Made by a program: the position numbers and the translations under genes. 64,000 nt of DNA. Source: Bacteroidota bacterium (GTDB taxonomy: Bacteria > Bacteroidota > Bacteroidia > Chitinophagales > Chitinophagaceae). The stretch spans positions 18,638 through 82,637 of the forward strand of contig CANGEP010000008.1 of the NCBI GenBank assembly GCA_947452905.1. The letters run 5' to 3'. Of this stretch, positions 24,649 through 46,213 are shown piece after piece. The notes beneath the pieces are model-generated. The model ran no database searches, had not been told where the DNA came from, and worked only from the letters and a program-made list of their open reading frames with translations. Each line of letters opens with the position of its first letter. The first letter of the stretch is position 1.

Positions 24649-24753
24649 GTAAGTACTGCAATATAAGACTAGATTTTCATAAAAAAGGGCTGTGTTTTTG
24701 AGAAAAAAGTGCTATTTTTCAACATAAATTGATTAAAAATCAAACTAAAAATT

Positions 24754-26244
24754 ATGAGTTTATTTAGAAAAAAGGATTTAGCTGCCATGTTAGCACAAGC
24801 TGAAGATGGTGGTAAAGGTTTAAAACGCACTTTAGGTGCTGGTAACCTTGTGGCCTTAGGTGTGGGTGCCATTATTGGTGCTGGTTTATTTGTGAGAACT
24901 GCCGCTGCAGCAGGTCAAGCTGCGGGACCAGCCGTTACACTTTCTTTTATTGTTGCTGCTATAGGTTGTGCTTTTGCAGGTTTATGTTATGCCGAATTTG
25001 CTGCCATGATCCCTATTTCGGGTAGTGCTTACGCTTATTCTTATGTAACAATGGGTGAAACAGTTGCTTGGATTATTGGCTGGGCATTAATAATGGAGTA
25101 TGCCTTAGGTGCAGCAACCGTATCTATTGCATGGAGTGAGTATTTAAATAAGCTGCTCGGAGGAAGCATCCCTTATGAATGGAGTCACTCCCCTTTTGAG
25201 AGCATTACCGATTCGGCAGGTGTTTTACATCATGGAATCATGAATGCTCCTGCATTAATTATTCTTTTAGCCCTTACTTTATTATTAATTAAGGGAACAC
25301 AAGAGTCTGCAATTGTAAATGCGATTATCGTATTTATTAAAGTAGCCATTGTAATTATATTTATCATTTTAGGATGGCAATTTATTCGCCCCGAAAATCA
25401 TACACCTTATTTTATTCCTGCTAACCAACCTCCATTATTAGATGGAGCTGGTAAAGTTGTAGCCGATTACTCTGGCGCCTTTAAACATGGCTGGGGTGGT
25501 GTTTTAGGCGGTGCTGCCATTGTGTTCTTTGCCTTTATTGGTTTTGACGCTGTTTCAACTGCGGCTCAAGAAGCAAAAAATCCAAAAAGAGATATGCCCA
25601 TTGGTATCTTAGGCTCATTAGTAGTTTGTACAATTTTGTATATTTTATTTGGACACGTTTTAACTGGTGTAGCTAACTGGAAAGACTTTGTAGATCCTTT
25701 AAAAGGTCGTGAAGCATCAGTAGCCTATGCTATTTCAACTTATATGACTGGCTATGGTTGGTTAGCCACTGCAGTTACAGTAGCTATCTTAGCTGGATTT
25801 AGTTCTGTAATATTAGTAATGTTAATGGGCCAATCACGTGTGTTCTATTCAATGGCCAATGACGGATTATTACCTAAAGTATTCTCTGACTTGCATCCTA
25901 AATACAGAACACCTTATAAATCTAACTGGATACTATTTGTATTTGTAGGTGCTTTTGCGGCTTTTGTACCAGGAAGTGTGGCCGGAGATTTAACCTCTTT
26001 CGGAACCTTATTTGCCTTCGTATTAGTAAGTGCAGGGGTTTGGATTTTACGTGTTAAATCGCCAGGTATGGAGCGTCCATTTAAAACACCTTTAGTACCA
26101 TTGGTTCCTATTTTAGGGGCTGTTATTTGCTTAGCTATGATTTGTGCTCTAGATGCCCAAACCCTTAAAGTAGCTTTTGCTTGGATGGCTTTAGGATTAG
26201 TGGTTTACTTTGCTTATTCACGCAAACACAGTAAGCTCAACTAA
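24754..26244 (+). CDS. APC family amino acid permease
   Basis: GAIIGAGLF, YAEFAAMIPISGSAY, FAFIGFDAVST, QSRVFYSMA. Confidence 0.92.
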   Translation: MSLFRKKDLAAMLAQAEDGGKGLKRTLGAGNLVALGVGAIIGAGLFVRTAAAAGQAAGPAVTLSFIVAAIGCAFAGLCYAEFAAMIPISGSAYAYSYVTMGETVAWIIGWALIMEYALGAATVSIAWSEYLNKLLGGSIPYEWSHSPFESITDSAGVLHHGIMNAPALIILLALTLLLIKGTQESAIVNAIIVFIKVAIVIIFIILGWQFIRPENHTPYFIPANQPPLLDGAGKVVADYSGAFKHGWGGVLGGAAIVFFAFIGFDAVSTAAQEAKNPKRDMPIGILGSLVVCTILYILFGHVLTGVANWKDFVDPLKGREASVAYAISTYMTGYGWLATAVTVAILAGFSSVILVMLMGQSRVFYSMANDGLLPKVFSDLHPKYRTPYKSNWILFVFVGAFAAFVPGSVAGDLTSFGTLFAFVLVSAGVWILRVKSPGMERPFKTPLVPLVPILGAVICLAMICALDAQTLKVAFAWMALGLVVYFAYSRKHSKLN

Positions 26245-30218: not shown

Positions 30219-30251
30219 AAAAAGCGATACAAATTCAGTATCGCTTTTTTT
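30219..30251 (+). terminator. Intrinsic terminator after the DUF1573 gene
   Basis: AAAAAGCGATAC-aaattca-GTATCGCTTTTTTT. Confidence 0.85.
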
Positions 30252-30280
30252 ATACCTAGGTGGCGCCTATCTTTGCGCGA

Positions 30281-31480
30281 ATGATTACCATTAGCGATAG
30301 AGGATTACAAATGCCTTCTTCTCCTATTAGAAAGCTAGCGCCACTTGCAGAAGCTGCTAAAAAAGAAGGGGTAAAAGTATACCATTTAAATATTGGACAA
30401 CCTGATATTGAAACACCCTCCATTATGATGGAAGCGGTAAAAAATGCAGATGTAAAAGTTTTAGAGTATACGGATAGTGCTGGTATTTTAAGTTTTAGAA
30501 AAAAATTAGCCGACTACTATATATCAAAAGGCATCGCTGTGGATTACACGGATATTTTAATTACCATTGGTGGTAGTGAGGGAATTTTATTTGCTTTTAT
30601 GGCCTGCCTTGATGCAGGAGATGAAATTATTGTGCCAGAACCTTTTTATGCCAATTATATTGGATTTGCGATGGCAGCTGGCATTAAAATTATTCCTATT
30701 ACATCCACTATTGAATCTGGATTTGCACTTCCACCCATCGACTTCTTTAGAAAAAAAATTACCTCTAAAACAAAAGGGATATTTATTTGCAATCCAAATA
30801 ATCCTACGGGTTATGTATATAGCGAAAACGAATTATTGCAAATTAGAGATTTAATAAAAGAAAAAGATTTGTATTTGTTTTCGGACGAAGCTTATACCGA
30901 GTTTAGTTATGAAAATAAAGTAAAGAGCACTTTAACACTTGAGGGTGTAGAAGATAGAGTAATCATGATTGATACTTTCTCCAAAAAATACTCTGCATGT
31001 GGTGCACGTATAGGTGCATTAGTGACAAAAAATAAAGCAGTGATTGAAGCGGTGATGAAGTTCTCTCAGGCAAGATTAAGCCCACCCACTCTCGAGCAAA
31101 TTGCTGCCGAAGCCGCCTTAAGCTTACCCTCCGATTATTTTGAAGCTACCCGTTTGGCGTATAAAAACAGAAGAGCGGTTTTAATAAAAAGATTATCCGA
31201 AATGGAAGGGGTATACTGCCCTGCTCCTCAAGGTGCTTTTTATGCCATGGCAAAACTTCCTGTGGAAGATACCGATCATTTTTGCGCTTGGTTATTAAGT
31301 GAATTTAGATTTAATAATGCCACTGTAATGCTCGCACCCGCTAGTGGATTTTATACCACACCAGGACTTGGAAAAAACGAGGTTAGATTGGCCTATGTAT
31401 TAAATGAAACAGAGATTCATAATGCCATGGATTGTTTAGAAGCCGCATTATTATCTTACGCCTATCGTTTGCGTAAATAG
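30281..31480 (+). CDS. Class I/II PLP-dependent aminotransferase (aspartate aminotransferase-like)
   Basis: HLNIGQPD, CNPNNPTG, SDEAY, DTFSKKYSACGARIG. The start is likely 30281 (ORF track gives 30260). Confidence 0.9.
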   Translation: MITISDRGLQMPSSPIRKLAPLAEAAKKEGVKVYHLNIGQPDIETPSIMMEAVKNADVKVLEYTDSAGILSFRKKLADYYISKGIAVDYTDILITIGGSEGILFAFMACLDAGDEIIVPEPFYANYIGFAMAAGIKIIPITSTIESGFALPPIDFFRKKITSKTKGIFICNPNNPTGYVYSENELLQIRDLIKEKDLYLFSDEAYTEFSYENKVKSTLTLEGVEDRVIMIDTFSKKYSACGARIGALVTKNKAVIEAVMKFSQARLSPPTLEQIAAEAALSLPSDYFEATRLAYKNRRAVLIKRLSEMEGVYCPAPQGAFYAMAKLPVEDTDHFCAWLLSEFRFNNATVMLAPASGFYTTPGLGKNEVRLAYVLNETEIHNAMDCLEAALLSYAYRLRK

Positions 31481-31570
31481 TAAGCTTACCAATCATCACA
31501 ATTAAGCCACCACTCCTACTAATTTAACATAAAGTTGTTTTGAAAATTAAACAACCTTAGTAATTTTGTG

Positions 31571-31647
31571 TTGTTATAGTGTGGGTTTGATTTTAACTCT
31601 ATAGCAAGCAATCGTAAACGCCCGTTGTTTCTACAATGGGCTTTTTT
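31571..31647 (+). ncRNA. Candidate stand-alone small RNA (~75 nt)
   Basis: TTTG (31539-42), 18 nt, then TAATTTTG (31561-68). Hairpin TTGTTATAG/CTATAGCAA, then terminator GCCCGTTGT-ttct-ACAATGGGC-TTTTTT. No meaningful ORF, and the downstream gene is convergent. Confidence 0.5.
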
Positions 31648-31683
31648 ACGCCCCTACCTTTTGGATACCAACATTCCCTCAAC

Positions 31684-31713
31684 AAAAAGGCCCCCGACAA
31701 GTCGGAGGCCTTT
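31684..31713 (-). terminator. Intrinsic terminator of the susC1-susD1 operon
   Basis: Minus strand AAAGGCCTCCGAC-tt-GTCGGGGGCCTTTTT, just after the susD stop. Confidence 0.85.
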
Positions 31714-31736: not shown

Positions 31737-33260
31737 TTAGTCAACATCCCAGAAGATCTTAGTAGCTAAAGGATCGATTGTTCCTTGAGCAGTTACGTTA
31801 GCACCATTAGAACCTAATTCAGTTCCAGGGTAGTATAAACGTAATGGACGTGAAGTACCTACATAGTTCTTAGACTGAGGCGTTACAGGATAGTTATTTT
31901 TACGGTATTCAGACCATGCTTCTAATCCATTGTAGTTGGCATAGCATAACCATTTTTGATAACCAATCGCTTGTAACTTGTTAGTAGAAGCTACGAAGTC
32001 AACATCTTGAACACCACTTGCTAATAATCTTGTAGCATCGGCAGCAGATGCGCCTAATGTTCTATAAGATTCTTTAACACCCGCTTCGTAGTATGATTGT
32101 GCAGTACCTGTTAAAGTAACTGACGCACCATAACGTTGCTTGGCTTCTGCTAAATTGAATTGAGCTTCAGCAGCTGTCATTAAAATAAAAGACTTGTTAA
32201 AAGCACCTTTCACTAATACAGATGGACCAGGAGCAGAAGTAACAGCTGGTAAGAAACCAGCGCTAGATCCGAAAGGAACACCTACATAGTTGGCAGCAAT
32301 TTCTGCTTTAGCACTTACACCAGGATTAGCACCATCTTCATTACCAATTGCATAAAAAATGCGCTTTAAACGAACTGTATCACCAGTTGATTTTAAGTTA
32401 TTGATAAAGAATTCAGTACCTCTAGGCCAGTTATTGTTTGCTCTTCTAGCATTTGTCTCACTATAACCATAATTATCATAGAAAGGATTAATTTGACCAG
32501 CAGAAGCCACATAACCAGGGTTAACACCTGCATCAGCTCCAGATAAAACACCCGTACCTTCTGCATTGATTTTATTTACCTCTGCAGTAATGTAAGCATC
32601 TCTTCCGCTTACTCTTGCTTGACGCATTAAAATACGCAATTTCAAAGAGTTAGCAAATTTGATCCAGTTGGTTGTGTTTCCTTTGAAGATGATATCAGAA
32701 CCTGTATAAGCACTTGCAAATGCATTTGCTTTTAAGTCAACAATCGCACCATCTAATAAAGTAATTAAACCTTCATATACAGTTTTTTGATCGTCAAACT
32801 TAGGTGCTAATTTTTTAACACCTTGTAAGGCTTCTGTAAATGGAATGTTACCGTAAAGGTCTACAAGTTTTTGGAATGCCATAGCTTGCATAACTTTTGC
32901 AGGTCCTTTTAAGTAAGGTTGACCAGCTGTTACAGCATTGTCAATTACATATTGATAATCAAAAAGGTTATCATAAGTATTATCCCAATAGTTAAAATCA
33001 CCATTGGTAAAGCTGTAAGAGAATAATGTAGTACTAATGATATAACCATTAGACTGTGTCCATTGGCCACCCCAGAACATACCAGTTTCATTTGGAGAAA
33101 CCATATTGATGGCTGATTGGTTCAAGGCGTTGGCAAGAACAAACGCAGGCGTTGCGGTTGGAAGTGAATTCGGGTTGGTATTGACATCTAGATAGTCTTT
33201 TTTACAACCTGTTCCCACAATGACCAAAAACGCGGCGATATATAATTTATTTAGTTTCAT
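31737..33260 (-). CDS. susD: SusD/RagB family outer-membrane lipoprotein
   Basis: Lipobox VGTGC20, DYLDVNTNPN, LVDLYGNIPFTEAL, EAWSEYRK, IFWD C-terminus; directly downstream of a SusC. Confidence 0.9.
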   Translation of the reverse strand: MKLNKLYIAAFLVIVGTGCKKDYLDVNTNPNSLPTATPAFVLANALNQSAINMVSPNETGMFWGGQWTQSNGYIISTTLFSYSFTNGDFNYWDNTYDNLFDYQYVIDNAVTAGQPYLKGPAKVMQAMAFQKLVDLYGNIPFTEALQGVKKLAPKFDDQKTVYEGLITLLDGAIVDLKANAFASAYTGSDIIFKGNTTNWIKFANSLKLRILMRQARVSGRDAYITAEVNKINAEGTGVLSGADAGVNPGYVASAGQINPFYDNYGYSETNARRANNNWPRGTEFFINNLKSTGDTVRLKRIFYAIGNEDGANPGVSAKAEIAANYVGVPFGSSAGFLPAVTSAPGPSVLVKGAFNKSFILMTAAEAQFNLAEAKQRYGASVTLTGTAQSYYEAGVKESYRTLGASAADATRLLASGVQDVDFVASTNKLQAIGYQKWLCYANYNGLEAWSEYRKNNYPVTPQSKNYVGTSRPLRLYYPGTELGSNGANVTAQGTIDPLATKIFWDVD

Positions 33261-33285
33261 ATCTGTTGTTTTAAGTTAGTGGTGA

Positions 33286-36200
33286 TTAAAAAACAAAGTT
33301 TACGTTGAAACCAATTTGACGTACAGGAGGCGTTTGAGCAGTATTACTAATACCACTACCGTTACCTGCTGTATAGCTGAACTCAGGATCAGTAAACTGA
33401 TTCTTAGCATCAACTATTGTAAATAAGTTTCTACCATAAATTGCTACGTTAGCAGCAGAGAAAATCTTAGACTTTTTAACCAATGCGCTTGGTAAATTAT
33501 AAGACAAGTTAATGTCTCTTAATTTAATAAACCAGGCTGGTGCTACGAAATTCTCAGAAATCAAACGGTAGTTGTTAACCCATAAAGCGTACTCTGGTTC
33601 ACGTACTTTGATAGTAGTGTTAGGTACATTCGCTCCAGATACTGGATCGATATAATAAGAGTTAGCAAAAACTTGATCTGTTCTGTTTGAAGTCCATGCA
33701 CCAGATCCAGTAAAGGTCATTTGACGACCTAAGTCAGAGAACATGTAGTTTCCACCACGGTATTCAAAGTTAAAGGCTAAACGGAAATCTTTGTAAGACA
33801 CTGTTGATCCTAAACCTACCATATCACGAGGTAATGTACCACCACGCTCTTTTAAAGTTGGATCTAACACTGGATAACCAGTAGTCGCGTTTACTCTTCT
33901 TCTGCCCGCTTCATCATAATAATAACCGTTGGTTTTTAAGATAGGGAAGCGTTGGCCTAAGATAACGTTTGAAGTAGCATAAGAGTATCCACCATAAGCG
34001 AATGCAGTAATGCCAGGATACAAGCTAACCACTTTGTTATCGTTATTAGAGTATTTAATGTTCACATCCCATTTCACTTTCGTGTCACGTAAAATTTGAA
34101 CTTTTAAATCTGCTTCATAACCAAAGTTATTTACTTCACCCACGTTAATTAACAAGTTAGAGAAACCAGTTGAGTTAGGAACTTTAACTGTTAATACTTG
34201 ACCTTCAGATTTTTGAGTATACCAAGAAACGTCTAAGTTTACTCTGTTTTTGAACATGCTAAACTCACCACCCACTTCCATAGCTGTTACAAACTCAGGC
34301 TTTAAATTAGCATCAGGTAAAGTATTACCTACTGTTAAACCTACGTTGTTACCATAAGGGAAGTTAGTACCGTTAGCATAAGCAAGGTCTAAACCATATA
34401 AAGGAATATTGTCGTTACCGTTCTTGTTGTATGAAGTACGCAATTTAGCATAGTTTAACACATCGCTTTTCAATTTAGGAATCGCGTCTGTTAAAATTAA
34501 TGATAAGGCCGCACCATAATACAAGTAAGAATATTGATCGGTAGCTCTGGTAGATTTATAGAAACGAGAAGTGGCGTCGTAACGACCAGTCAAGTTTAAA
34601 TTGATCCACTCTAAGTTCTTTATGTTTGTGTTTAAATCCGCATAGTAACCATACTTACGCTCAGTTGTGTTAGCTTCTGATCCTGCTAAGTTACCTTGTC
34701 TGTTCGCGATGTTATAAACATCAGGAACCACGATAGAGCTTGAGCTTACAGAAATGGCTTTAGTATAACGTTGATACAAAGAATAACCTAAGTTTAATTT
34801 ATTTTGAGTGATACCTAAATCTTTTTGTAAACGAACTTGGAATTCATTGTTTAGAACGTTCTCTGTAGAAGAGTAATCACTTACAGAACCTAAGATATCA
34901 GAAATCGCACGGTAAATACCAGGATAATCATCATCATGTGTCCAAGGACTTGGAATATACGCACTGTTTTTTGCCCAATCAGAATATTGGAATTTCTCTT
35001 GCGTATTTTTTTGAGTACGAGAATTATTCATAATACCTAAACGGTTATATAATTGTAACCAAGGTAAAGCACGATAAGTGATATCGAAATTACCAGAAAG
35101 GTTAGCATCTTTATAACGAGCACGGTTAATATCCTTGTTAAAATAAGGGTTATTATAATAGTCATTATAGTAACCATTAGGATTCGCAAAAGGATTTGTT
35201 CTCCAGTTTCTCATGGTAGTTAAATCTACCCAAGAAGCTGTGTTAATGATATCATTTTGGAAATCCGAAGTAGTTCTGTCATACATAGCTTGTGTGTAAG
35301 AAGCATTAAAGCTGGTAGAAACTTTACCATACTCTCTTGTAGATTTTACACGCACACCAGTTCTATCACTTAAATCACCAGGTACGATACCGTTGATTTT
35401 TTGATTTTCAACTGATAAATAATAGCTACCATTATCATCACCACCTTGGAAGCTAGCTTGGTTGTTTGTAGAAACACCCACATCAAAGCTTTTTAGACGA
35501 ACATTTGCAACGTCTGCATAAGGGATAACTAATTTGCTACCATCTTGTAAAACACGACCCGCAATACGTAAGCTACCATCGTAAGCATCACCATATTGTT
35601 GGTTTTCATAAGGTCTCCAGTTTTCTTTAGAACGAGCTACCGCATCAGCATTATAGCCAGCTTGACCATATACTAAAGGATAGTATTGAGAACCAGAACC
35701 ATATTTATTTTGGAAAGCAGGTAAGAAACTTACTTGTTCAAAGTTGGTTGTATTTGAATACTGAACTTTTAATTTTCCTTTATTACCTTGTTTGGTAGTG
35801 ATTACTAAAGCACCGTTTACACCGGCAGAACCATACAATGTAGCCGCTTGACCACCCTTAAGGATAGACACGTTTTCTACATCATTTGGATTAATTAAAG
35901 CTAAAGCAGTAGAGGTAGTTTGCATACCATCAATTACTACTAAGGCTTCGTTATTACCAGTTAATGAACGGTAACCACGTAATACCACTTTTACAGCAGG
36001 ATCAACGCTATTGTTTACAGTGTACACCGCTAAACCAGAAACCTTACCCGCAAGGGCTTGTGTTAACTGAGGCGAGTGACCTACTGTAAGTTCATCACTA
36101 GATACTTTTGCATAAGAATATCCAATCTCTTTAGATTTTTTACGGATACCTTGAGCGGTAACAACTACATTATCAAGTTCATCCACTTGACGGTTCAAAA

Positions 36201-36471
36201 CCACGCTGATGGTAGTTGCACTAGCTTTTACTTCTGTTGAAGCGAAACCAGTGGCACTTACTTGCAAAGTTGCGTTTGCAGCAGCATTAATTTTGAAGTT
36301 ACCTTTTTCGTCAGCTACGATAGCTGAATTTTGACCCTTTACTTTAACTGTTGCGTAAGGGACAGCTGTTCCTTTGTCGTCTTTAACCGAACCGGCTACA
36401 GAACGAACCTGGGCGTTAGCTGTTACTAATACGAACACAGCTAAGAAGAGCGAGGTTACAATTTTCTTCAT
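33286..36471 (-). CDS. susC: SusC/RagA family TonB-dependent transporter
   Basis: Signal peptide, N-terminal extension, plug (LAGKVSGL...INPNDVENVSILKG...YGSAGVNGALVITTK), LKPEFVT, C-terminal FNVNFVF. Confidence 0.95.
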   Translation of the reverse strand: MKKIVTSLFLAVFVLVTANAQVRSVAGSVKDDKGTAVPYATVKVKGQNSAIVADEKGNFKINAAANATLQVSATGFASTEVKASATTISVVLNRQVDELDNVVVTAQGIRKKSKEIGYSYAKVSSDELTVGHSPQLTQALAGKVSGLAVYTVNNSVDPAVKVVLRGYRSLTGNNEALVVIDGMQTTSTALALINPNDVENVSILKGGQAATLYGSAGVNGALVITTKQGNKGKLKVQYSNTTNFEQVSFLPAFQNKYGSGSQYYPLVYGQAGYNADAVARSKENWRPYENQQYGDAYDGSLRIAGRVLQDGSKLVIPYADVANVRLKSFDVGVSTNNQASFQGGDDNGSYYLSVENQKINGIVPGDLSDRTGVRVKSTREYGKVSTSFNASYTQAMYDRTTSDFQNDIINTASWVDLTTMRNWRTNPFANPNGYYNDYYNNPYFNKDINRARYKDANLSGNFDITYRALPWLQLYNRLGIMNNSRTQKNTQEKFQYSDWAKNSAYIPSPWTHDDDYPGIYRAISDILGSVSDYSSTENVLNNEFQVRLQKDLGITQNKLNLGYSLYQRYTKAISVSSSSIVVPDVYNIANRQGNLAGSEANTTERKYGYYADLNTNIKNLEWINLNLTGRYDATSRFYKSTRATDQYSYLYYGAALSLILTDAIPKLKSDVLNYAKLRTSYNKNGNDNIPLYGLDLAYANGTNFPYGNNVGLTVGNTLPDANLKPEFVTAMEVGGEFSMFKNRVNLDVSWYTQKSEGQVLTVKVPNSTGFSNLLINVGEVNNFGYEADLKVQILRDTKVKWDVNIKYSNNDNKVVSLYPGITAFAYGGYSYATSNVILGQRFPILKTNGYYYDEAGRRRVNATTGYPVLDPTLKERGGTLPRDMVGLGSTVSYKDFRLAFNFEYRGGNYMFSDLGRQMTFTGSGAWTSNRTDQVFANSYYIDPVSGANVPNTTIKVREPEYALWVNNYRLISENFVAPAWFIKLRDINLSYNLPSALVKKSKIFSAANVAIYGRNLFTIVDAKNQFTDPEFSYTAGNGSGISNTAQTPPVRQIGFNVNFVF

Positions 36472-37419: not shown

Positions 37420-39615
37420 CTAAACTTTTAGCAATCCCACTTTCATCAAAGTGGATACTGGTTTATTATCCCAAAATAATTCAAATCCCTCTAATCCTGC
37501 TTCCTTATAAGAAGATTTTATTTCAGATAAGGTCCAGCCATTATTTTTTTGATTTTTTAATTGCACTAGTAGGTTAAATAACCATTCACCCTTTGTAAGA
37601 TCTACCGCAATTTTTACTTCCTTCTGGGCGCCAATAAAGTGCAGTTGCAACTCCTCCCACTTGCTACCTTTCTTAGATTTTTGAAGAATTGTTTTTTGTG
37701 GTAAGCTACCAATAAATAAAACTTTATATGCAGTTCGATCATCAATTTCGGGTTCTTCGAGTAATTTTTGTAGGTAGTCTTTAGGTACACTCACCGCAGG
37801 TATAGGAAAGTCGAACCATTTTTGCAAAGGCCAATCAAAACAGCTGCCATGCATATAATTAAATAAGGCCTTCTTTAATCCAAAACCAAATATTTCATGA
37901 TTTGCCCCAGTAGGGTCGGTATGTTCAATATCATTGTTGGCAAAGGTTCCTATTTGATCTGTTCTTTTTTTAACTTTAAAATCGGCTGGTGCTAAACCCA
38001 CTGGACTATGTGCCGTCATAGTAAATAAATGCCAAAAGGCAGATTGTAAAACACCTTTGGCAAACATTTGTCTAACCATCTCCAAAGAGTCCACTGTTTC
38101 TTGCACTGTTTGTGTAGGAAACCCATACATTAAATAAGCATGTACCATAATACCTGCTTCGGTAAAATGTTTACTTACTTTAGCCACTTGTGCTACTGTA
38201 ACTCCTTTGTTTATTAAAGTTAATAAACGGTCCGATGCTACTTCCAAACCACCACTTACCGCAATACAACCAGCAGCTTTTAAAAGTAAACACAGGTCTG
38301 CTGTAAAACTTTTATCAAACCTTACATTGGCCCACCAACTTACCACTAATTTTCTTTTAATGATTTCAATTGAAATAGCTTTCATTAAAGAAGGAGGAGC
38401 CGCTTCATCTACAAAATGAAAACCTGTTTCACCAGTTTTTTCGATGAGCTCTTGCATTCGGTCCACAATTAAGGAGGCCGAAATGGGTTCATAAGATTTT
38501 ATATAATCTAAAGAGATATCACAAAAAGTACATTTGGCCCAATAACATCCATGTGCCATGGTTAATTTATTCCATCTTCCATCGCTCCATAAACTATGCA
38601 TGGGATTAACCACTTCAATAGCTGAAATATATTTATCTAATAATAAACCCTCATAATCGGGTGTACCCACTTGCCCTTGTTTATAATCGGCACATGAGGT
38701 ATTGTTAATGTATTTTACTTCGCCTTCTACCAATGTAAAACAACGTTTTAAAGCTTCTTGTTCTACTTTACCATCGATATGATCTATTAAAATTTTTAAA
38801 GGTGCTTCCCCATCATCCAAAGTAATAAAATCATAAAATTCAAAAACCCTTTTATCGGAGAGTGACCTAAGCTCAGTGTTTGCAAAACCTCCACCCATGG
38901 CCACTTTAGCGGATGGAAAGTTATTTTTAACCCATTGACCACATCGTAAGGAAGTATATAAATTGCCCGGGAAAGGAACCGATATGCAAACTAGTTTAGG
39001 ATTTATTTCAATTATTTTTTTTGAAAATATTTGAATTAAAATTTCATCAATATAAGTAAGTGGCTTTTGTAAAGCTTCGTATAACTCATCAAAACTATTG
39101 GCCGATCTTGCCAAACTTTCGGCATATCTACTAAACCCAAAATAGGGGTCAACTGTTTGTTTAATTAAATCGCTTAAATCTTCTAAATATAGAGTGGCTA
39201 TATGTTTGGCTTTATCTTGTTTACCCATACTGCCAAATGCCCAATCTAAATTATCAATTTGCTCAAATCTACTCGCTTCAGGTAAAAATTGTCGTGCACT
39301 TATTAAATGGGCCAATGTATTTTGCTTTCCTTGTAAAAACAAAACAACTTCATCGATAGTTTTGATATAATGCTCTTTAAGGGCTACCATTCTTTTGCCA
39401 TTATCCGAAAGTTCGTTTTCGAATTTTTCAATGGTAGTAAATAAATCGGTGAGTCCTTTTTTAGTAAAAAGTTCGATAATAACTTCAATGCCTAAATCGG
39501 CCTGAAACGATTTTATTTGCTGTGTATTAAAAAAACCTTTTAAATAGGCCGTTGCTGGATAGGGCGTATTTAACTGTGTAAAAGGAGGGGTAATTAAAAA
39601 AACAGATTCGCTCAA
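37420..39615 (-). CDS. B12-binding-domain radical SAM protein
   Basis: GCYWAKCTFC (CxxxCxxC), FHFVDE, SGGLE, YLMYGFP; N-terminal B12-binding-like region; TTG start with TATTTTTG promoter element at 39635-39642. Confidence 0.85.
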   Translation of the reverse strand: MSESVFLITPPFTQLNTPYPATAYLKGFFNTQQIKSFQADLGIEVIIELFTKKGLTDLFTTIEKFENELSDNGKRMVALKEHYIKTIDEVVLFLQGKQNTLAHLISARQFLPEASRFEQIDNLDWAFGSMGKQDKAKHIATLYLEDLSDLIKQTVDPYFGFSRYAESLARSANSFDELYEALQKPLTYIDEILIQIFSKKIIEINPKLVCISVPFPGNLYTSLRCGQWVKNNFPSAKVAMGGGFANTELRSLSDKRVFEFYDFITLDDGEAPLKILIDHIDGKVEQEALKRCFTLVEGEVKYINNTSCADYKQGQVGTPDYEGLLLDKYISAIEVVNPMHSLWSDGRWNKLTMAHGCYWAKCTFCDISLDYIKSYEPISASLIVDRMQELIEKTGETGFHFVDEAAPPSLMKAISIEIIKRKLVVSWWANVRFDKSFTADLCLLLKAAGCIAVSGGLEVASDRLLTLINKGVTVAQVAKVSKHFTEAGIMVHAYLMYGFPTQTVQETVDSLEMVRQMFAKGVLQSAFWHLFTMTAHSPVGLAPADFKVKKRTDQIGTFANNDIEHTDPTGANHEIFGFGLKKALFNYMHGSCFDWPLQKWFDFPIPAVSVPKDYLQKLLEEPEIDDRTAYKVLFIGSLPQKTILQKSKKGSKWEELQLHFIGAQKEVKIAVDLTKGEWLFNLLVQLKNQKNNGWTLSEIKSSYKEAGLEGFELFWDNKPVSTLMKVGLLKV

Positions 39616-41790: not shown

Positions 41791-44784
41791 ATGAGAAAAT
41801 TTGTCGCAATCCTTTTATGCGCAGTTTTGACAGTAACTCAGGTTATGGCTCAAAACAAAACCATAAGAGGTAAGGTTACAGAAGACGGGAAAAAACCTGT
41901 CGCAAATGCCTCTGTCGTTATTAAAGGTTCTACAACTGGAACCAAAACTGACGACCAAGGTAATTATACATTAGCTGTTCCAGCAAATGCAAAAGTATTA
42001 GTTTTTAGTGCCTTAAATTATGAAGCACAAGAAACTAGCATTGGTTCTAAAACTGAAATTAATGTAGTATTAGCTACAACTGTTTCTGAGTTACAACAAG
42101 TAATTGTTACTGGTTATGGTACCACTAAAAAGGCAACTAACACTGGTTCAATCGCTATTGTTAAAGCTGCAGATATTGAAAGTTTACCTTTCAGCTCAGT
42201 TGATAAAGCTTTACAAGGTAAAGTAGCAGGTTTACAATCTGTTGCTGCTTCTGGTCAACCAGGTGCTAGCCAATCTATCTTAATTCGTGGTGCTAGTTCT
42301 ATCAATGCAAGTACTTCACCATTGTGGGTAATTGATGGGGTTCCAGTGAATGCTGGTGACGCTTCTCGTTTACAAACTACTGGAAACTTGTTAAGTACAT
42401 TAAATCCAAATGATATCGAGAGCATCTCTGTCTTAAAAGACGCTGCTTCTCAATCTATCTATGGTAGCCGTGCGGCAAATGGTGTAATCGTGGTAACCAC
42501 TAAAAAAGGTAAAAGCGGTAAAACTAAATTTAGATTTGATACTGAAGTAGGTAACTCTAATGTTGCTTATCAAAACCCTAAATACTTACCATTGGATGCC
42601 AATGAGTACATTAACATTACACGTGAAGGTTTAGTGAATGCTGGTTACCCAACTGCTACTGTAAATGCTCAAGCAATTGCATTAGGAGAAGGTAATGGCA
42701 ATAACTTTAACTGGTATGATCATGTAATGAGAACGGGTCAACAAAAGCAATATAACTTAAGTGCCGAAGGTGGTAACGATAAAACAACTTTCTTCTTATC
42801 AGGTGGTCGTTTCTTCCAAGAAGGTACTTCTATCAACTCTCAATTAGAGAGAAACAACTTGAATGTTAGAATTAACAACAAAGCTACTGATAGATTAAAC
42901 CTTGGTTTTAATATGAATGTGGGTAATGTGAGTCAAAGAGCGCCTTTATCAGGTGGTGCATTTGGTAACCCATTATTAAGTTCTTACTTCTTATTACCTA
43001 CCTATTCTGCTTACAATGCAGATGGCTCATATAACTATGTATTAAACGGTGGTTTACATAATACAGTTGCCTTATCAGAATTAGATAAGCGTTTTTTACG
43101 TCAAACAAGTGCAAGAGGTAGCTTAACTGCTGATTATAAAATTTTAGATAATCTTAAATTTAAATCAGTATACGGTATCGACTATAACAACTTAGAGGAA
43201 GATCAGTACAATAACCCAATTCATGGTGATGGTGCTGCAACAAATGGTCGTGCTTTTGCATACTACACACGTTACTTTAACTATGTTTGGACAAATACTT
43301 TAGATTTCCAACAAAACATTACTCGTAATGGTGACCTTTCTAGCTCTACTCAAATTGGCTATGAAGCACAAAAATCTATGGGTTATTTCTCCTCTTTACA
43401 ATCTCAACAATTTCCTCCATCATTATCTTTAGTTTGGCCTGCATCTGGTGCTAGTCCAACTACTGCAAGTGCAAGTATTTCTGATTATTCATTTGAATCT
43501 CAATTTGCTTCTACCAACTTAAACTATCAAAATAGATTTGTTCTTTCTGCTAGTTTCCGTCGTGATGGATCATCTCGTTTTAGCCCTAATAACAGATACG
43601 GTAATTTCTGGTCTGTGGGTGGTACATGGAATATGGAGAAAGAAAAATTCATGAGCAATCAAAGAATTTTCGATCAATTAAAACTACGTGCTTCTTATGG
43701 TGTGAACGGTAACGCAGGTATTGGTAACTACGATGCTCCTGCTTTATATGGTTTTGGATATAACTATAACCAATTACCAGGTTCGGCTCCAACCAACGTA
43801 GGTGACCCTAATTTAACTTGGGAATTAAACAAACCAATGAACGTGGGTATCGATTTTAGTGTATTAAAAAATCGTATCAATGTAACATTTGATTACTATG
43901 TTAGAAAATCTGAAAACTTATTATTGAGTGTGCCTTTGTCAACCACTTCTGGTTTTTCATCTGCGACTCGTAATATTGGTGCTATGGAAAATAGAGGTAT
44001 TGAACTTTCTATTAATACTGTTCCAGTACAAACCAAAGATTTCCGTTGGGATTTAGATTTCAATTTTGCGAACAACAATAACAAAATTACTAGCTTACCT
44101 AACCACGCTGATATCCTTTCTGGAAACTTTATTATTCGCGAAGGTCAAAGTTTAAATACTTTCTTCCTACGTGAGTGGGCAGGTGTTAACCCAGGTACTG
44201 GTGATCCAATGTGGTACGATAGCGATAAACACGCTGGTTCTACCAATATTTACCCAGGTGCTAGTGCACGTATCTTAGCAGGTCAAGCTTTACCTAAGTT
44301 TTTTGGTTCTTTAACCAATGCACTTACTTATAAAGGCTTTACATTAAGCGCTCAATTGTATTACAACTTTGGCAACCAAGTATTTGATACATGGAGAGGC
44401 TACTACTTAGGTTCTGGTTTTGGTGCTTCTTTCAACAAAGTTAAACGTCAGTTAGATGCTTGGAAAAAACCAGGTGATATTACTGATATACCTAAGTATG
44501 TATACAATGGTAATAAGAGCTTTAATAGTGCTTCAACATTTAACTTAAATGACGGTAGTTTTGTACGTGTTAGAGATATTCAATTAGGTTATAACTTACC
44601 AAAAGCGGTAACTGAAAAATTAAAAATTGGAACTGCTAATTTCTATGTAAGAGGTACTAACTTGTTTACATGGGTTAAGGATAAGAACTTACCATTTGAT
44701 CCAGAGCAAGGTACTTCTAGTGCAACCAACTTGAATGTATTCATCCCTAAAACAGTCACTGTTGGGCTTAGCCTAACTTTCTAA
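41791..44784 (+). CDS. susC: SusC/RagA family TonB-dependent transporter
   Basis: VVTGYGT-like, ALQGKVAGLQ, LNPNDIESISVLKDAASQSIYGSRAANGVIVVTTKKG, NLTWE, C-terminal GLSLTF. Confidence 0.95.
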   Translation: MRKFVAILLCAVLTVTQVMAQNKTIRGKVTEDGKKPVANASVVIKGSTTGTKTDDQGNYTLAVPANAKVLVFSALNYEAQETSIGSKTEINVVLATTVSELQQVIVTGYGTTKKATNTGSIAIVKAADIESLPFSSVDKALQGKVAGLQSVAASGQPGASQSILIRGASSINASTSPLWVIDGVPVNAGDASRLQTTGNLLSTLNPNDIESISVLKDAASQSIYGSRAANGVIVVTTKKGKSGKTKFRFDTEVGNSNVAYQNPKYLPLDANEYINITREGLVNAGYPTATVNAQAIALGEGNGNNFNWYDHVMRTGQQKQYNLSAEGGNDKTTFFLSGGRFFQEGTSINSQLERNNLNVRINNKATDRLNLGFNMNVGNVSQRAPLSGGAFGNPLLSSYFLLPTYSAYNADGSYNYVLNGGLHNTVALSELDKRFLRQTSARGSLTADYKILDNLKFKSVYGIDYNNLEEDQYNNPIHGDGAATNGRAFAYYTRYFNYVWTNTLDFQQNITRNGDLSSSTQIGYEAQKSMGYFSSLQSQQFPPSLSLVWPASGASPTTASASISDYSFESQFASTNLNYQNRFVLSASFRRDGSSRFSPNNRYGNFWSVGGTWNMEKEKFMSNQRIFDQLKLRASYGVNGNAGIGNYDAPALYGFGYNYNQLPGSAPTNVGDPNLTWELNKPMNVGIDFSVLKNRINVTFDYYVRKSENLLLSVPLSTTSGFSSATRNIGAMENRGIELSINTVPVQTKDFRWDLDFNFANNNNKITSLPNHADILSGNFIIREGQSLNTFFLREWAGVNPGTGDPMWYDSDKHAGSTNIYPGASARILAGQALPKFFGSLTNALTYKGFTLSAQLYYNFGNQVFDTWRGYYLGSGFGASFNKVKRQLDAWKKPGDITDIPKYVYNGNKSFNSASTFNLNDGSFVRVRDIQLGYNLPKAVTEKLKIGTANFYVRGTNLFTWVKDKNLPFDPEQGTSSATNLNVFIPKTVTVGLSLTF

Positions 44785-44812
44785 TAAAGTTAAATTCAAA
44801 TAGAAAAAGATT

Positions 44813-46213
44813 ATGAAACGATTTACAATAAAAAATATGATAGTAGCAACAGTGTTGATGCTATCATTTGCTTCTTGTGAAAAGAGCTTCTTGGAATTAC
44901 AACCTCCAACCTCTTTAACACCAGAATATGCATTAGCTACGGAAGCCGATTTACAAGTGGCTTTACGTGGTGCTTATGCAGGTTTAAAAACTACCGGCTT
45001 ATACGGTAGATCTTTACCTGTTTTAGGCGATATCATGGCCGACAATACTTACCAATCTGTATCTAATACTAACCGTTATACAGCGTTTAACTTGTATAAC
45101 TACACAGTTTTAGATGGTGATGTGCAAGCTTTATGGACTAATGCTTACACCGTAATTTTACGTGCCAACAATATCATTAACTCTAGTGTTGCTGATAATG
45201 CTAACGTATTACAATATAAGGGTGAAGCATATGCTATTCGCGCATTAGCTTACTTTAATTTAGTACGTTATTTTGCAACTCCTTATACTCAAGATCCAAC
45301 TGCATTAGGGGTTCCTATTGTAACTACTTACAAAGCAGATTTAAAACCATCAAGAGCAAAAGTGTCTGAAGTATATGACCTTATTAATAAGGACTTAACA
45401 ATGGCAGCTACTATGATGACTAAGTTTACGAACTCTTCTCAGTTTAGTAAATATGCTGCAAAAGCTTTACAAGCTAAAGTATTATTAGCTATGGGCGATA
45501 TGACAAATGCTAAGGCTGTAGCTTTAGATGTTATTGCTAATAGTGGTTTTACTGCAGTAACTGCTGCAGCGCACGCAGGTTATTGGTCAGCTGTTGCACC
45601 TAGGACTGATAAAGTGGAAACTTTATTTGAAGTTTCATTTGATGCAGTTTCTAACAACGGTTTTGATGCCTTAGCTTATATTTACTTACAATCAGGTAAC
45701 TATGGTGATATGTTATGTAACACCGACTTTTATAAAACATTTGACGCTGCAGACGTAAGAAAAGCTTTATATGCAACAGGTACAAGAGGTGGTTTAGCTT
45801 CCGTATTTGTAAACAAGTTTTCTTCCTATAGTGGTGACCATACAGATACTAAAGTGGTTAGATTATCAGAAATGTATTTAATTGCTGCCGAAGCTTCTTA
45901 TCCTTCTAACTCTGCAGATGCTTTAAAATATATCAATGAAGTTACAAGCCGTAGAGGTGCTCCAGCGATCGCTTCTTCAGGTGCTGCTTTATTAGAAGAT
46001 ATCATTGCTGAAAGAAGAAGAGAATTAGCTTTCGAAGGTGAGCGTTATTTAGATATGCAAAGATTAAAGAGAAACATTACTCGTAGCACTGACTACCCAG
46101 CCTCTGCTAGAGCAATTGACTTTGCTAATTTCAGAAGAATAATGCCTATTCCACAAGTGGAATTAGATGCTAATCCTAATATTAGATCTCAACAAAATCC
46201 AGGCTGGAACTAG
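44813..46213 (+). CDS. susD: RagB/SusD family outer-membrane lipoprotein
   Basis: Lipobox SFASC, GEAYAIRALAYFNLVRYF, VRLSEMYLIAAEA, ERRRELAFEGER, QNPGW. Confidence 0.92.
   Translation: MKRFTIKNMIVATVLMLSFASCEKSFLELQPPTSLTPEYALATEADLQVALRGAYAGLKTTGLYGRSLPVLGDIMADNTYQSVSNTNRYTAFNLYNYTVLDGDVQALWTNAYTVILRANNIINSSVADNANVLQYKGEAYAIRALAYFNLVRYFATPYTQDPTALGVPIVTTYKADLKPSRAKVSEVYDLINKDLTMAATMMTKFTNSSQFSKYAAKALQAKVLLAMGDMTNAKAVALDVIANSGFTAVTAAAHAGYWSAVAPRTDKVETLFEVSFDAVSNNGFDALAYIYLQSGNYGDMLCNTDFYKTFDAADVRKALYATGTRGGLASVFVNKFSSYSGDHTDTKVVRLSEMYLIAAEASYPSNSADALKYINEVTSRRGAPAIASSGAALLEDIIAERRRELAFEGERYLDMQRLKRNITRSTDYPASARAIDFANFRRIMPIPQVELDANPNIRSQQNPGWN

What the first reader, a model, noticed from the sequence alone, without database searches (positions are those of the whole stretch)
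31534..31653. Candidate undescribed small RNA: promoter, 5' hairpin and terminator in the gap between convergent genes
The sequence shows a -33 TTTG (31539-42) and an exact -7 TAATTTTG (31561-68). A 9-bp stem (31571-79/31599-607) encloses a G/U-rich region (UGUGGGUUUGAUUUUAACU), followed by a 12-nt linker and a 9-bp terminator stem (31620-41) plus U6. Both stems contain a G-U pair that works only on the plus strand. A 7-bp inverted repeat (GTTGTTT/AAACAAC, 31534-55) overlaps the -33 element like an operator. Alternative pairings exist (GGGUUU with AAACGCCC; GGGC 31638-41 with GCCC 31650-53). No plus-strand gene follows, so this is not a 5' leader. Inference: a regulated trans-acting sRNA of ~75 nt, possibly using the G/U-rich loop as a seed or protein-binding site.
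Basis: partly seen in the sequence, partly recalled or inferred. Interest (0 to 1): 0.62.

Follow-up and report, generated by a model that had tools for sequence, protein, structure and literature searches.

The report
Conserved small RNA gene after aminotransferase
The 75-base stretch is a real, evolutionarily conserved structured RNA of freshwater Chitinophagaceae, with a promoter box, a 5' hairpin and a terminator; it matches no described RNA family, but its transcription start and its function remain untested.

Summary
The promoter match alone is no better than chance. The evidence comes from relatives.

- **Conservation:** the same element follows the orthologous aminotransferase in all 8 related species genomes, and about 27 metagenome contigs carry it.
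- **Where conservation sits:** it starts at the TAnnTTTG box and stops at the T-run. Identity is 85% within groups and 65% between groups, against 35% and 33% downstream.
- **Structure:** both helices covary. 90.7% of cells pair, 15 of 19 pairs show compensatory changes, and 0 of 500 shuffles reach this.
- **Invariant segments:** GUUUGRUU in the loop and GCAAGCAAUCG in the linker, both predicted single-stranded.
- **Independence from the aminotransferase:** the element persists where that gene is absent.
- **Novelty:** Rfam 15, including FopS and GibS, does not match it.

Best reading: a roughly 73-75 nt small RNA transcribed from its own sigma-A promoter (predicted start 31573). It shares its terminator with the aminotransferase mRNA and probably acts by base-pairing.

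Not supported: the proposed "operator" inverted repeat is not conserved, and no target stood out in the window. Metatranscriptome contigs show only co-transcription with the aminotransferase 3' end, so an independent start is unproven.

The parts
31486..31530 (+). Moderately conserved upstream block that ends in the motif TTTAACA (31523-31529). It may be a regulator-binding or UP-like region.
   Evidence: The block is shared by group A relatives, including L124 and L137, which lack the aminotransferase. TTTAACA lies 38-39 nt before the -7 box in groups A and C, and 48-49 nt before it in group B. Its function is inferred only.
31539..31542 (+). -33-like TTTG, 18 nt upstream of the -7 box.
   Evidence: Read directly from the sequence. 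It is present in groups A and B but not clearly in group C. The -33 element is known to be weak or absent in other Bacteroidota (PMC7366714).
31561..31568 (+). -7 box TAATTTTG, matching the Bacteroidota sigma-A consensus TAnnTTTG.
   Evidence: TA..TTTG is kept at a fixed distance from the hairpin in 26 loci of three lineages. The variants are TAATTTTG, TAATTTCG, TATTTTCG, TAGTTTTG and TACCTTTG, and the flanks are variable. In Flavobacterium the box occupies -12 to -5 (PMC9723704).
31573..31647 (+). Predicted small RNA transcript of about 73-75 nt. The start at 31573 is inferred from the box position; the 3' end lies in the U-run.
   Evidence: The covariance model matches 31569-31648 at 97.4 bits, E = 6e-20, and 87.9 bits with model R2. 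The fold of 31573-31647 is -22.3 kcal/mol, z = -3.7. The start site is an inference, not an observation.
31571..31607 (+). 5' hairpin: stem 31571-79 with 31599-607 and loop 31580-98. The loop carries the conserved GGGUUUGAUU (31583-92).
   Evidence: Six stem pairs show changes on both sides across relatives, for example AUAG/CUAU to AUGG/CCAU, and U-G to C-G. GUUUGRUU is invariant in the 8 loci found through the protein, a search that did not select for it.
31604..31619 (+). Linker with the invariant GCAAGCAAUCG (31604-14). From 31608 it is predicted single-stranded, making it the most likely seed or protein-binding site.
   Evidence: Invariant in the window and in L001-L008. Unpaired in the folds of all groups.
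31620..31647 (+). Rho-independent terminator: a 9-bp stem with loop UUCU, then U6. It is shared with the upstream aminotransferase mRNA.
   Evidence: Found by the terminator scan. All 9 pairs covary and 97.8% of cells pair. Several metatranscriptome contigs end within 2 nt of the T-run: X24 record 6 and X22 record 4, and X43 record 13.
30260..31480 (+). Upstream gene, a PLP-dependent class I/II aminotransferase. It has no terminator of its own before the element.
   Evidence: Pfam PF00155 at 2.4e-56. NCBIfam PRK07568 at 1e-175. No other plus-strand terminator lies between 31480 and 31620.
31689..31713 (-). Separate terminator of the convergent SusD-like gene (31737-33260, minus strand). It is not part of the RNA.
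   Evidence: Read from the sequence. The weak Rfam hits to this hairpin reflect the terminator only. The gene matches SusD-like_2 at 1e-61.

Best explanation
The element is a small non-coding RNA gene of about 73-75 nt. It is specific to a clade of freshwater Chitinophagaceae.

**Transcription.** It is transcribed from its own sigma-A-type promoter (-7 box TAATTTTG at 31561-68, predicted start near 31573). The promoter sits in the 3' untranslated region of the aminotransferase gene. Transcription ends at the intrinsic terminator (31620-47), which also ends the aminotransferase mRNA. This is the arrangement of a '3'-UTR small RNA with an internal promoter'.

**Structure.** The RNA folds into a 5' hairpin that presents GGUUUGRUU in its loop, then a single-stranded AGCAAUCGWAA linker, then the terminator hairpin.

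**Function.** These two invariant unpaired segments most likely base-pair with mRNAs encoded elsewhere in the genome, or bind an RNA-binding protein, to control translation or stability.

**Shown:** the conserved sequence, the covarying structure, the conserved promoter box, the terminator, and the lack of coding potential.

**Inferred:** the start site, independent transcription, and action in trans.
For: 1. **Present in every close relative.** The element follows the orthologous aminotransferase in all 8 related species-representative genomes, which share 81-87% amino-acid identity. About 27 further metagenome loci match covariance model R1 with E from 1e-21 to 1e-4.
2. **Conservation is confined to the box-to-T-run interval.** Identity there is 85% within groups and 65% between groups. 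It is 58% and 43% in the 80 nt upstream, and 35% and 33% in the 80 nt downstream.
3. **Covariation.** 90.7% of cells pair, against 68.5% in shuffles. 15 of 19 pairs change on both sides, and the covariation score is 0.534 against 0.165 (0 of 500 shuffles reach it). Slid controls pair at only 37-48%.
4. **The promoter box behaves like a promoter box.** TAnnTTTG is kept at a fixed distance from the stem with variable nn and variable flanks. This is the sigma-A -7 box of the phylum, placed at -12 to -5 (PMC9723704; PMC7366714). The same organism uses TATCTTTG just before the aminotransferase start codon.
5. **It does not depend on the aminotransferase.** L123, L124 and L137 lack that gene but keep the box, the RNA and the terminator after the DUF1573 gene. 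More distant members lie after a tRNA-Cys or after a small lipoprotein ORF.
6. **It is not coding.** Close relatives differ by 1-, 2- and 4-nt insertions or deletions in the loop.
7. **The strand is defined.** G-U pairs and the fold energies favour the plus strand, -24.4 against -13.7 kcal/mol.
Against: - No transcription start site data exist for any carrier.
- All RNA evidence is from assembled metatranscriptome contigs at low depth. These extend upstream of the predicted start into the aminotransferase 3' end. Co-transcription is therefore shown, while independent initiation is not.
- The full promoter pattern is not above chance in the window.
- In every independent genomic context, a gene on the same strand lies upstream. 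This is also what a purely 3'-UTR-derived RNA would show.
- The distant members L083 and L187 have no canonical box at the corresponding place.
- No target complementarity above shuffled-seed background was found in the 64-kb window.
- The one 10-nt match, at the amino-acid permease start region, is not conserved in relatives.
- The invariance of the two motifs among L081-L200 is partly by construction, because the metagenome scan required both motifs.
Confidence: 0.6

Rival explanations
1. The element has no promoter of its own. It is the structured 3' untranslated end of the upstream mRNA (aminotransferase or DUF1573). It acts in cis as a stability or termination module, or it is released by RNase processing as a 3'-UTR-derived small RNA.
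For: - The aminotransferase has no other terminator.
- Metatranscriptome contigs join the aminotransferase 3' end to the element and stop at the T-run.
- Every context has an upstream gene on the same strand.
- In the possible distant members of group D, the element starts directly after a SusD-like stop codon.
Against: - A TA--TTTG island with free middle positions and unconserved flanks at a fixed distance from the hairpin is the signature of a -7 box, not of an RNA-level constraint.
- Conservation rises sharply at the box rather than at the stop codon.
- The element keeps its sequence when the upstream coding gene is exchanged. That is unexpected for a gene-specific cis element.
Confidence: 0.27
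2. The RNA works mainly by binding a protein, for example an RRM-type RNA-binding protein such as RbpB of Bacteroides, rather than by pairing with mRNAs. The invariant GCAAGCAAUCG and GUUUGRUU segments would be protein recognition sites.
For: - Two motifs stay strictly invariant and single-stranded across lineages in which the helices change freely.
- No mRNA partner was found locally.
- Bacteroidota small RNAs are bound by RbpB in single-stranded regions (PMC11697453).
Against: - There is only one copy of each motif, so a titrating sponge is unlikely.
- No protein data exist.
- Invariant unpaired segments are equally typical of seed regions, as in GibS and FopS.
- This is a sub-case of the best explanation, not an exclusive rival.
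Confidence: 0.1
3. The features are a chance hairpin plus an ordinary terminator in an AT-rich spacer, with a fortuitous promoter-like match.
For: The promoter pattern alone is not above chance: 2 were found against 4.5 expected. Terminators always covary.
Against: - The non-terminator part is conserved and covaries across three lineages.
- The covariance-model matches have E down to 1e-21.
- Identity is far above that of the flanks.
Confidence: 0.02

Closest known systems
FopS small RNA family and GibS of Bacteroides thetaiotaomicron (Rfam RF04319, RF04182)
   Same: - Same phylum.
- Similar size: FopS is about 65-70 nt.
- Canonical TAnnTTTG-type promoter and an intrinsic terminator.
- A conserved single-stranded segment used as the seed.
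- One FopS member is 3'-UTR-derived.
- FopS RNAs repress susC translation, and this element lies next to a SusC/SusD pair (PMC11697453; PMC7366714).
   Different: - No sequence or structure match to either Rfam model at E up to 10.
- The seed candidates lie in a loop and an internal linker, not at the 5' end.
- There is a single copy in 64 kb, whereas FopS has 12-15 copies per genome.
- No complementarity to the neighbouring susC start region was found.
- The family occurs in Chitinophagaceae, not Bacteroidaceae.
3'-UTR small RNAs with an internal promoter that share the parental mRNA's terminator (the DapZ and MicL type in enterobacteria; the class is also defined for B. thetaiotaomicron)
   Same: The promoter lies downstream of, or within the end of, a coding gene. 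The terminator is shared with the parental mRNA. The seed is conserved. Readthrough and short transcripts coexist. The class definition is in PMC7366714; the DapZ and MicL examples come from my own knowledge.
   Different: There is no homology. The carriers lack Hfq and ProQ, a phylum-level statement from PMC7366714. The start site is not mapped here.
Conserved terminated elements downstream of the orthologous aminotransferase in Chitinophaga species (L010-L021)
   Same: - Same genomic position and strand.
- A TAnnTTTG-like box (TATTTTTG or TAATTTCG).
- About 60 nt, with a 5' hairpin and a terminator whose stem shows a compensatory change.
- The 9-mer AUAACGUGG is shared with relative L004.
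   Different: They lack GUUUGRUU and GCAAGCAAUCG. They are not detected by model R2 and only weakly by R1 (E = 0.03-0.15). Homology is therefore unproven. They also match no Rfam family; the best hit is FopS at 19.9 bits against a threshold of 56.

Membership tests
Bacterial small regulatory RNA gene (independent or 3'-UTR type with its own promoter) | A promoter element positioned to start the transcript | tested here: met
   TAnnTTTG is kept at a fixed distance from the hairpin in 26 loci of 3 lineages, with variable nn and flanks. The motif and its -12 to -5 position come from PMC9723704.
Bacterial small regulatory RNA gene (independent or 3'-UTR type with its own promoter) | An experimentally mapped primary 5' end and a discrete short transcript | not testable with these tools
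   Only assembled contigs of metatranscriptomes were available. They cover the element but extend upstream of the predicted start.
Bacterial small regulatory RNA gene (independent or 3'-UTR type with its own promoter) | A Rho-independent terminator at the 3' end | tested here: met
   A 9-bp GC-rich stem followed by T6. All 9 pairs covary. Contigs end at the T-run.
Bacterial small regulatory RNA gene (independent or 3'-UTR type with its own promoter) | Sequence and structure conserved above the flanks, with compensatory changes | tested here: met
Bacterial small regulatory RNA gene (independent or 3'-UTR type with its own promoter) | No protein-coding potential | tested here: met
   Close relatives differ by 1-, 2- and 4-nt insertions or deletions inside the element. 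No conserved ORF is present.
Bacterial small regulatory RNA gene (independent or 3'-UTR type with its own promoter) | Complementarity of a conserved unpaired segment to target mRNAs | tested here: inconclusive
   Only 46 start regions in the window could be scanned, and nothing exceeded shuffled-seed background. The permease match is not conserved. Whole genomes are needed.
FopS / GibS (Rfam RF04319, RF04182) | A match to the family covariance model | tested here: not met
   Neither model hits the element at E up to 10 in the window, or at E up to 1 in 7 relatives.
FopS / GibS (Rfam RF04319, RF04182) | Multicopy paralogous family within one genome | tested here: inconclusive
   There is one copy in the 64-kb window and one per fetched contig. 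Whole genomes were not available.
FopS / GibS (Rfam RF04319, RF04182) | A seed complementary to susC translation initiation regions | tested here: not met
   The start regions of the susC-like genes in the window are not among the best duplexes.
Any described RNA family (Rfam 15) | A match at or near the gathering score | tested here: not met
   There are no gathering-score hits in the whole window. On the element itself there are only noise hits: mir-302 at E = 8 and RNAIII at 18.6 bits.
Cis-regulatory 5' leader, riboswitch or attenuator | A conserved downstream gene on the same strand, controlled by the terminator | tested here: not met
   The downstream gene is convergent in the window and in most relatives, and it differs between lineages.

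The most novel reading that the evidence does not exclude
The element is the founding member of a Chitinophagaceae-wide regulatory RNA locus. This locus would be anchored downstream of one aminotransferase gene and would include the differently sequenced tandem RNAs of Chitinophaga. It would be driven by a dedicated regulator that binds the conserved upstream TTTAACA block. It would act, like FopS in Bacteroides, as a post-transcriptional switch for nutrient-uptake or amino-acid genes, through two separate invariant seeds.
Probability: 0.15. Interest if true: 0.6.

Novelty: new member of a known kind. Interest (0 to 1): 0.42.

Why it matters
RNA-based regulation in Bacteroidota is known almost only from gut Bacteroides and one Flavobacterium. 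No small RNA has been described for Chitinophagaceae, which are abundant in lakes and soils.

This candidate comes with a ready covariance model, a predicted start site, two sharply defined candidate seeds and about 35 natural sequence variants. It is directly testable.

If it is confirmed, it would give a first handle on post-transcriptional control in this family. It would also be a further example of small RNAs with their own promoter embedded in 3' UTRs in a phylum that lacks Hfq and ProQ. It is an ordinary kind of object, not a new mechanism.

Tried and rejected
1. **Local target search.** I computed duplex energies of the whole RNA body and of each seed against all start regions in the window, and searched for the exact complement of each seed. 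Nothing exceeded shuffled controls. Pairing with the aminotransferase start region in 8 species was also at background.
2. **Amino-acid permease lead.** A 10-nt perfect match to the loop lies at 24736-45, positions -18 to -9 of ORF 24754-26244. I rejected it because the orthologous 5' regions in L109, L124 and L092 lack it.
The inverted repeat is not conserved.
4. **Alternative pairing GGGUUU with AAAC..CCC.** There is no covariation signal. The GUUUG/CAAGC pairing proposed by RNAalifold on a poorly aligned set involves only invariant bases and cannot be judged.
5. **L117 as evidence for an autonomous unit.** I rejected it. The contig joins a truncated GDP-fucose synthase ORF to the promoter at a low-complexity 21-mer, so it is probably a chimeric assembly.
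6. **Homology with the Chitinophaga elements.** It is not supported by the broader model R2.
7. **Metatranscriptomes.** Four read-laying runs (11, 40, 47, 81) returned only low-depth contigs without strand information. No start could be read. The searches offered no runs kept as raw reads.
8. **Link to dCas12f-sigmaE guide RNAs** (PMC13472631). I read the paper but did not pursue the idea. Those guides carry the guide at the 3' end and sit in rpoE-dcas12f loci, whereas this RNA ends in a terminator.
9. **TTTAACA-N-TAnnTTTG as a general promoter architecture.** Within the window it occurs only here. A Prevotellaceae match is an ordinary gene promoter.

Full report
**Observation.**
- TTTG at 31539-42.
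- TAATTTTG at 31561-68.
- A 9-bp stem, 31571-79 with 31599-607, containing one U-G pair.
- A 12-nt linker.
- A 9-bp terminator stem at 31620-41 containing one G-U pair, followed by T6. The terminator scan also found it.
- The inverted repeat GTTGTTT/AAACAAC at 31534-55.

The plus strand folds to -24.4 kcal/mol (z = -4.6). The minus strand reaches only -13.7 kcal/mol (z = -1.9). The promoter pattern by itself is not significant: TTTG-N17-21-TAnnTTTG occurs twice in the window against 4.5 expected.

**Surroundings.** The element lies between two convergent genes.
- Upstream is a PLP-dependent aminotransferase (30260-31480, plus strand; Pfam PF00155, NCBIfam PRK07568).
- Downstream is a convergent SusD-like gene (31737-33260, minus strand), followed by SusC (33286-36471, minus strand). 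The SusD gene has its own terminator at 31689-31713 on the minus strand.
- The aminotransferase has no plus-strand terminator other than the one in the element. Its mRNA must therefore run through the element.
- The window contains no tRNA and no Rfam family at gathering score.

**Relatives.** A genome scan with the aminotransferase places the window in a clade of uncultured freshwater Chitinophagaceae.
- All eight species-representative genomes with 81-87% identical aminotransferases (L001-L008) carry the same element right after the gene.
- The next relatives, at 64% identity or below, including Chitinophaga, do not carry it.
- A metagenome pattern scan returned 120 loci. Covariance model R1 recognised about 27 of them with E from 1e-21 to 1e-4. 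The rest are chance matches inside coding regions.
- That scan required both conserved motifs. The invariance of the motifs is therefore unbiased only for L001-L008.

Members fall into five groups:

| Group | Members | Context |
|---|---|---|
| A | window-like | orthologous locus, after the aminotransferase or DUF1573 |
| B | L003-like | orthologous locus |
| C | L006-like | orthologous locus |
| E | L083, L173, L187 | after tRNA-Cys, or after a small lipoprotein ORF |
| D | L091, L113, L134, L191, L198 | linker plus terminator directly after a SusD-like stop codon; only possible members |

**Structure.** On the model-guided alignment of 27 sequences:
- 90.7% of cells form standard pairs, against 68.5% in shuffles.
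- 15 of 19 pairs show changes on both sides.
- The covariation score is 0.534 against 0.165, and 0 of 500 shuffles reach it.
- Sliding the 3' partners by 1-3 columns drops pairing to 37-48%.
- All nine terminator pairs and six pairs of the 5' hairpin covary. Examples: UUGUUAUAG/CUAUAGCAA in the window, UUGCUAUGGUU/AACCAUGGCAA in L197, and GCUUGCCA/UGGCAAGC in L187.

Two segments are invariant in the unbiased set, and both are unpaired in the folds of every group. They are GUUUGRUU in the loop and GCAAGCAAUCG, which spans the 3' foot of the hairpin and the linker.

Close relatives differ by 1-, 2- and 4-nt insertions or deletions in the loop. This excludes a coding function.

**Promoter.** In 26 loci of groups A-C, an 8-mer TA--TTTG lies at a fixed distance from the hairpin.
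- The variants are TAATTTTG, TAATTTCG, TATTTTCG, TAGTTTTG and TACCTTTG. The two free positions and the flanks vary.
- This is the sigma-A -7 box of Bacteroidota (PMC7366714). In Flavobacterium psychrophilum it occupies -12 to -5 (PMC9723704). That predicts a start at 31573 and an RNA of about 73-75 nt.
- The same organism has TATCTTTG (30268-75) five bases before the likely aminotransferase start codon.
- Identity is highest from the box to the T-run: 85% within groups and 65% between groups. It is 58% and 43% in the 80 nt upstream, and 35% and 33% in the 80 nt downstream.
- A further conserved motif, TTTAACA (31523-29), lies 38-39 nt before the box in groups A and C, and 48-49 nt before it in group B. 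Its role is unknown.

**Independence from the aminotransferase.** L123, L124 and L137 lack the aminotransferase altogether. They keep the upstream block, the box, the RNA and the terminator directly after the DUF1573 gene that precedes the aminotransferase in the window. I discounted L117, which looked like a relocation, as a probable chimeric contig. However, every independent context has an upstream gene on the same strand. Sharing of the terminator with an upstream transcript therefore seems to be the rule.

**Expression.** Many freshwater metatranscriptomes contain the element, but only as assembled, low-depth contigs without strand information.
- Several contigs end within 2 nt of the T-run: X24 record 6, X22 record 4 and X43 record 13. 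This fits termination there.
- The same contigs extend upstream of the predicted start, and in two cases into the aminotransferase coding region.
- Other contigs run through the terminator.

This shows co-transcription with the aminotransferase, or DNA carry-over. It neither shows nor excludes an internal start.

**Function.**
- No complementarity above shuffled controls was found between either conserved segment and the 46 start regions of the window. This includes the SusC genes and the aminotransferase.
- A 10-nt match at the amino-acid permease start region is not conserved in relatives.
- The alternative pairing between the loop and the terminator foot has no covariation support.

The mechanism I commit to is therefore an inference from the anatomy. 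It is a small RNA with its own promoter inside a 3' UTR, and it uses one or both invariant unpaired segments to pair with distant mRNAs. Protein binding is a sub-alternative.

**Comparison with what is known.**
- Rfam 15 has nothing that matches the window element or seven relatives.
- The nearest functional analogues are FopS and GibS of Bacteroides. These are 65-70 nt, use canonical promoters, carry single-stranded seeds and repress susC translation, which RbpB antagonises (PMC11697453). Their models do not match. The seed position differs, and only one copy is seen per contig.
- The gene arrangement equals that of 3'-UTR small RNAs with an internal promoter.
- Chitinophaga species carry one or two differently sequenced, terminated 60-nt elements, with TAnnTTTG-like boxes, downstream of the orthologous aminotransferase. 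This is a positional analogue whose homology is not demonstrable.

**Verdict.** That it is an independently initiated small RNA is likely but unproven (about 0.6). The main rival is a promoter-less 3'-UTR element or a processed 3'-UTR RNA (about 0.27). It is a new member of a known kind and is of moderate interest.

Noticed in passing
window 30219-30283: The DUF1573 gene ends with its own terminator: stem 30224-30230 with 30238-30244, then a T-run at 30245-51. A TATCTTTG box at 30268-75 lies 5 nt before an in-frame ATG at 30281. The aminotransferase therefore probably starts at 30281, not at GTG 30260, on a leaderless or nearly leaderless mRNA. The box and the ATG context are conserved in relatives.
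   Followed up: partly
L010-L021, e.g. L015:5569-5632 and L015:5789-5852: All Chitinophaga genomes fetched carry a highly conserved terminated element of about 60 nt, GUUUUUCAUAACGUGGAAUUUAUAAAGGCAAACGG plus a hairpin. It is preceded by TATTTTTG and lies 380-450 nt after the orthologous aminotransferase. The terminator stem shows a compensatory change, and about half the genomes have a second tandem copy. It matches no Rfam family and looks like a separate undescribed small RNA.
   Followed up: partly
L123, L124, L137 (e.g. L137:10845-11423, minus strand): In these relatives the aminotransferase gene is absent. The RNA element, with its upstream conserved block, directly follows the DUF1573 gene. 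The aminotransferase is therefore a variable insertion or deletion between two conserved neighbours.
   Followed up: yes
L117:700-960 (minus strand): This contig joins the first ~63 codons of a GDP-L-fucose synthase-like ORF to the RNA promoter, at the low-complexity sequence GATTTTTTTGAAAAAGAAAAA. It is probably an assembly chimera rather than a real rearrangement.
   Followed up: partly
L091, L113, L134, L191, L198 (e.g. L113:8905-9002, minus strand): A possible distant variant sits between a SusD-like gene and an FAD-dependent oxidoreductase-like gene (named from reading its translation; no family scan was run). GUUUGGUU starts 8-10 nt after the SusD stop codon. In three contigs it forms part of a TAAGTTTG box-like 8-mer. 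The 5' hairpin is missing, while GCAAGCAAUCG and a terminator remain.
   Followed up: partly
L083:3042-3271 and L173:5972-6270: In two distant members the element lies about 85-160 nt downstream of a tRNA-Cys(GCA) gene on the same strand. No canonical TAnnTTTG box is present at the expected place.
   Followed up: partly
L007:5252-5340: This MAG, labelled Sediminibacterium, has a deletion of about 6 nt that removes the 5' half of the outer hairpin stem, and its box reads TACCTTTA. It may be a decaying copy or an assembly variant.
   Followed up: no
window 24736-24745: AAAATCAAAC, the exact complement of the loop segment GUUUGAUUUU, lies at -18 to -9 of an amino-acid permease gene (24754-26244). 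It is not conserved in the orthologous 5' regions of L109, L124 and L092, so it is probably chance.
   Followed up: yes
window 31486-31530: The 3' UTR just after the aminotransferase stop codon contains a moderately conserved block, consensus ACC..CATC.TTTTTTCACCTCC.TTCATAATTTTTTAACA in relatives. It ends in TTTAACA at a fixed distance from the -7 box. In group B the distance is 10 nt longer, which is one helical turn. This suggests a protein-binding site.
   Followed up: partly
window 1-64000: No tRNA gene and no Rfam family at gathering score occur anywhere in the 64 kb. The window holds at least two SusC/SusD-like pairs (31737-36471 on the minus strand, 41791-46213 on the plus strand) and a B12-binding radical SAM gene (37420-39615, minus strand).
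   Followed up: no
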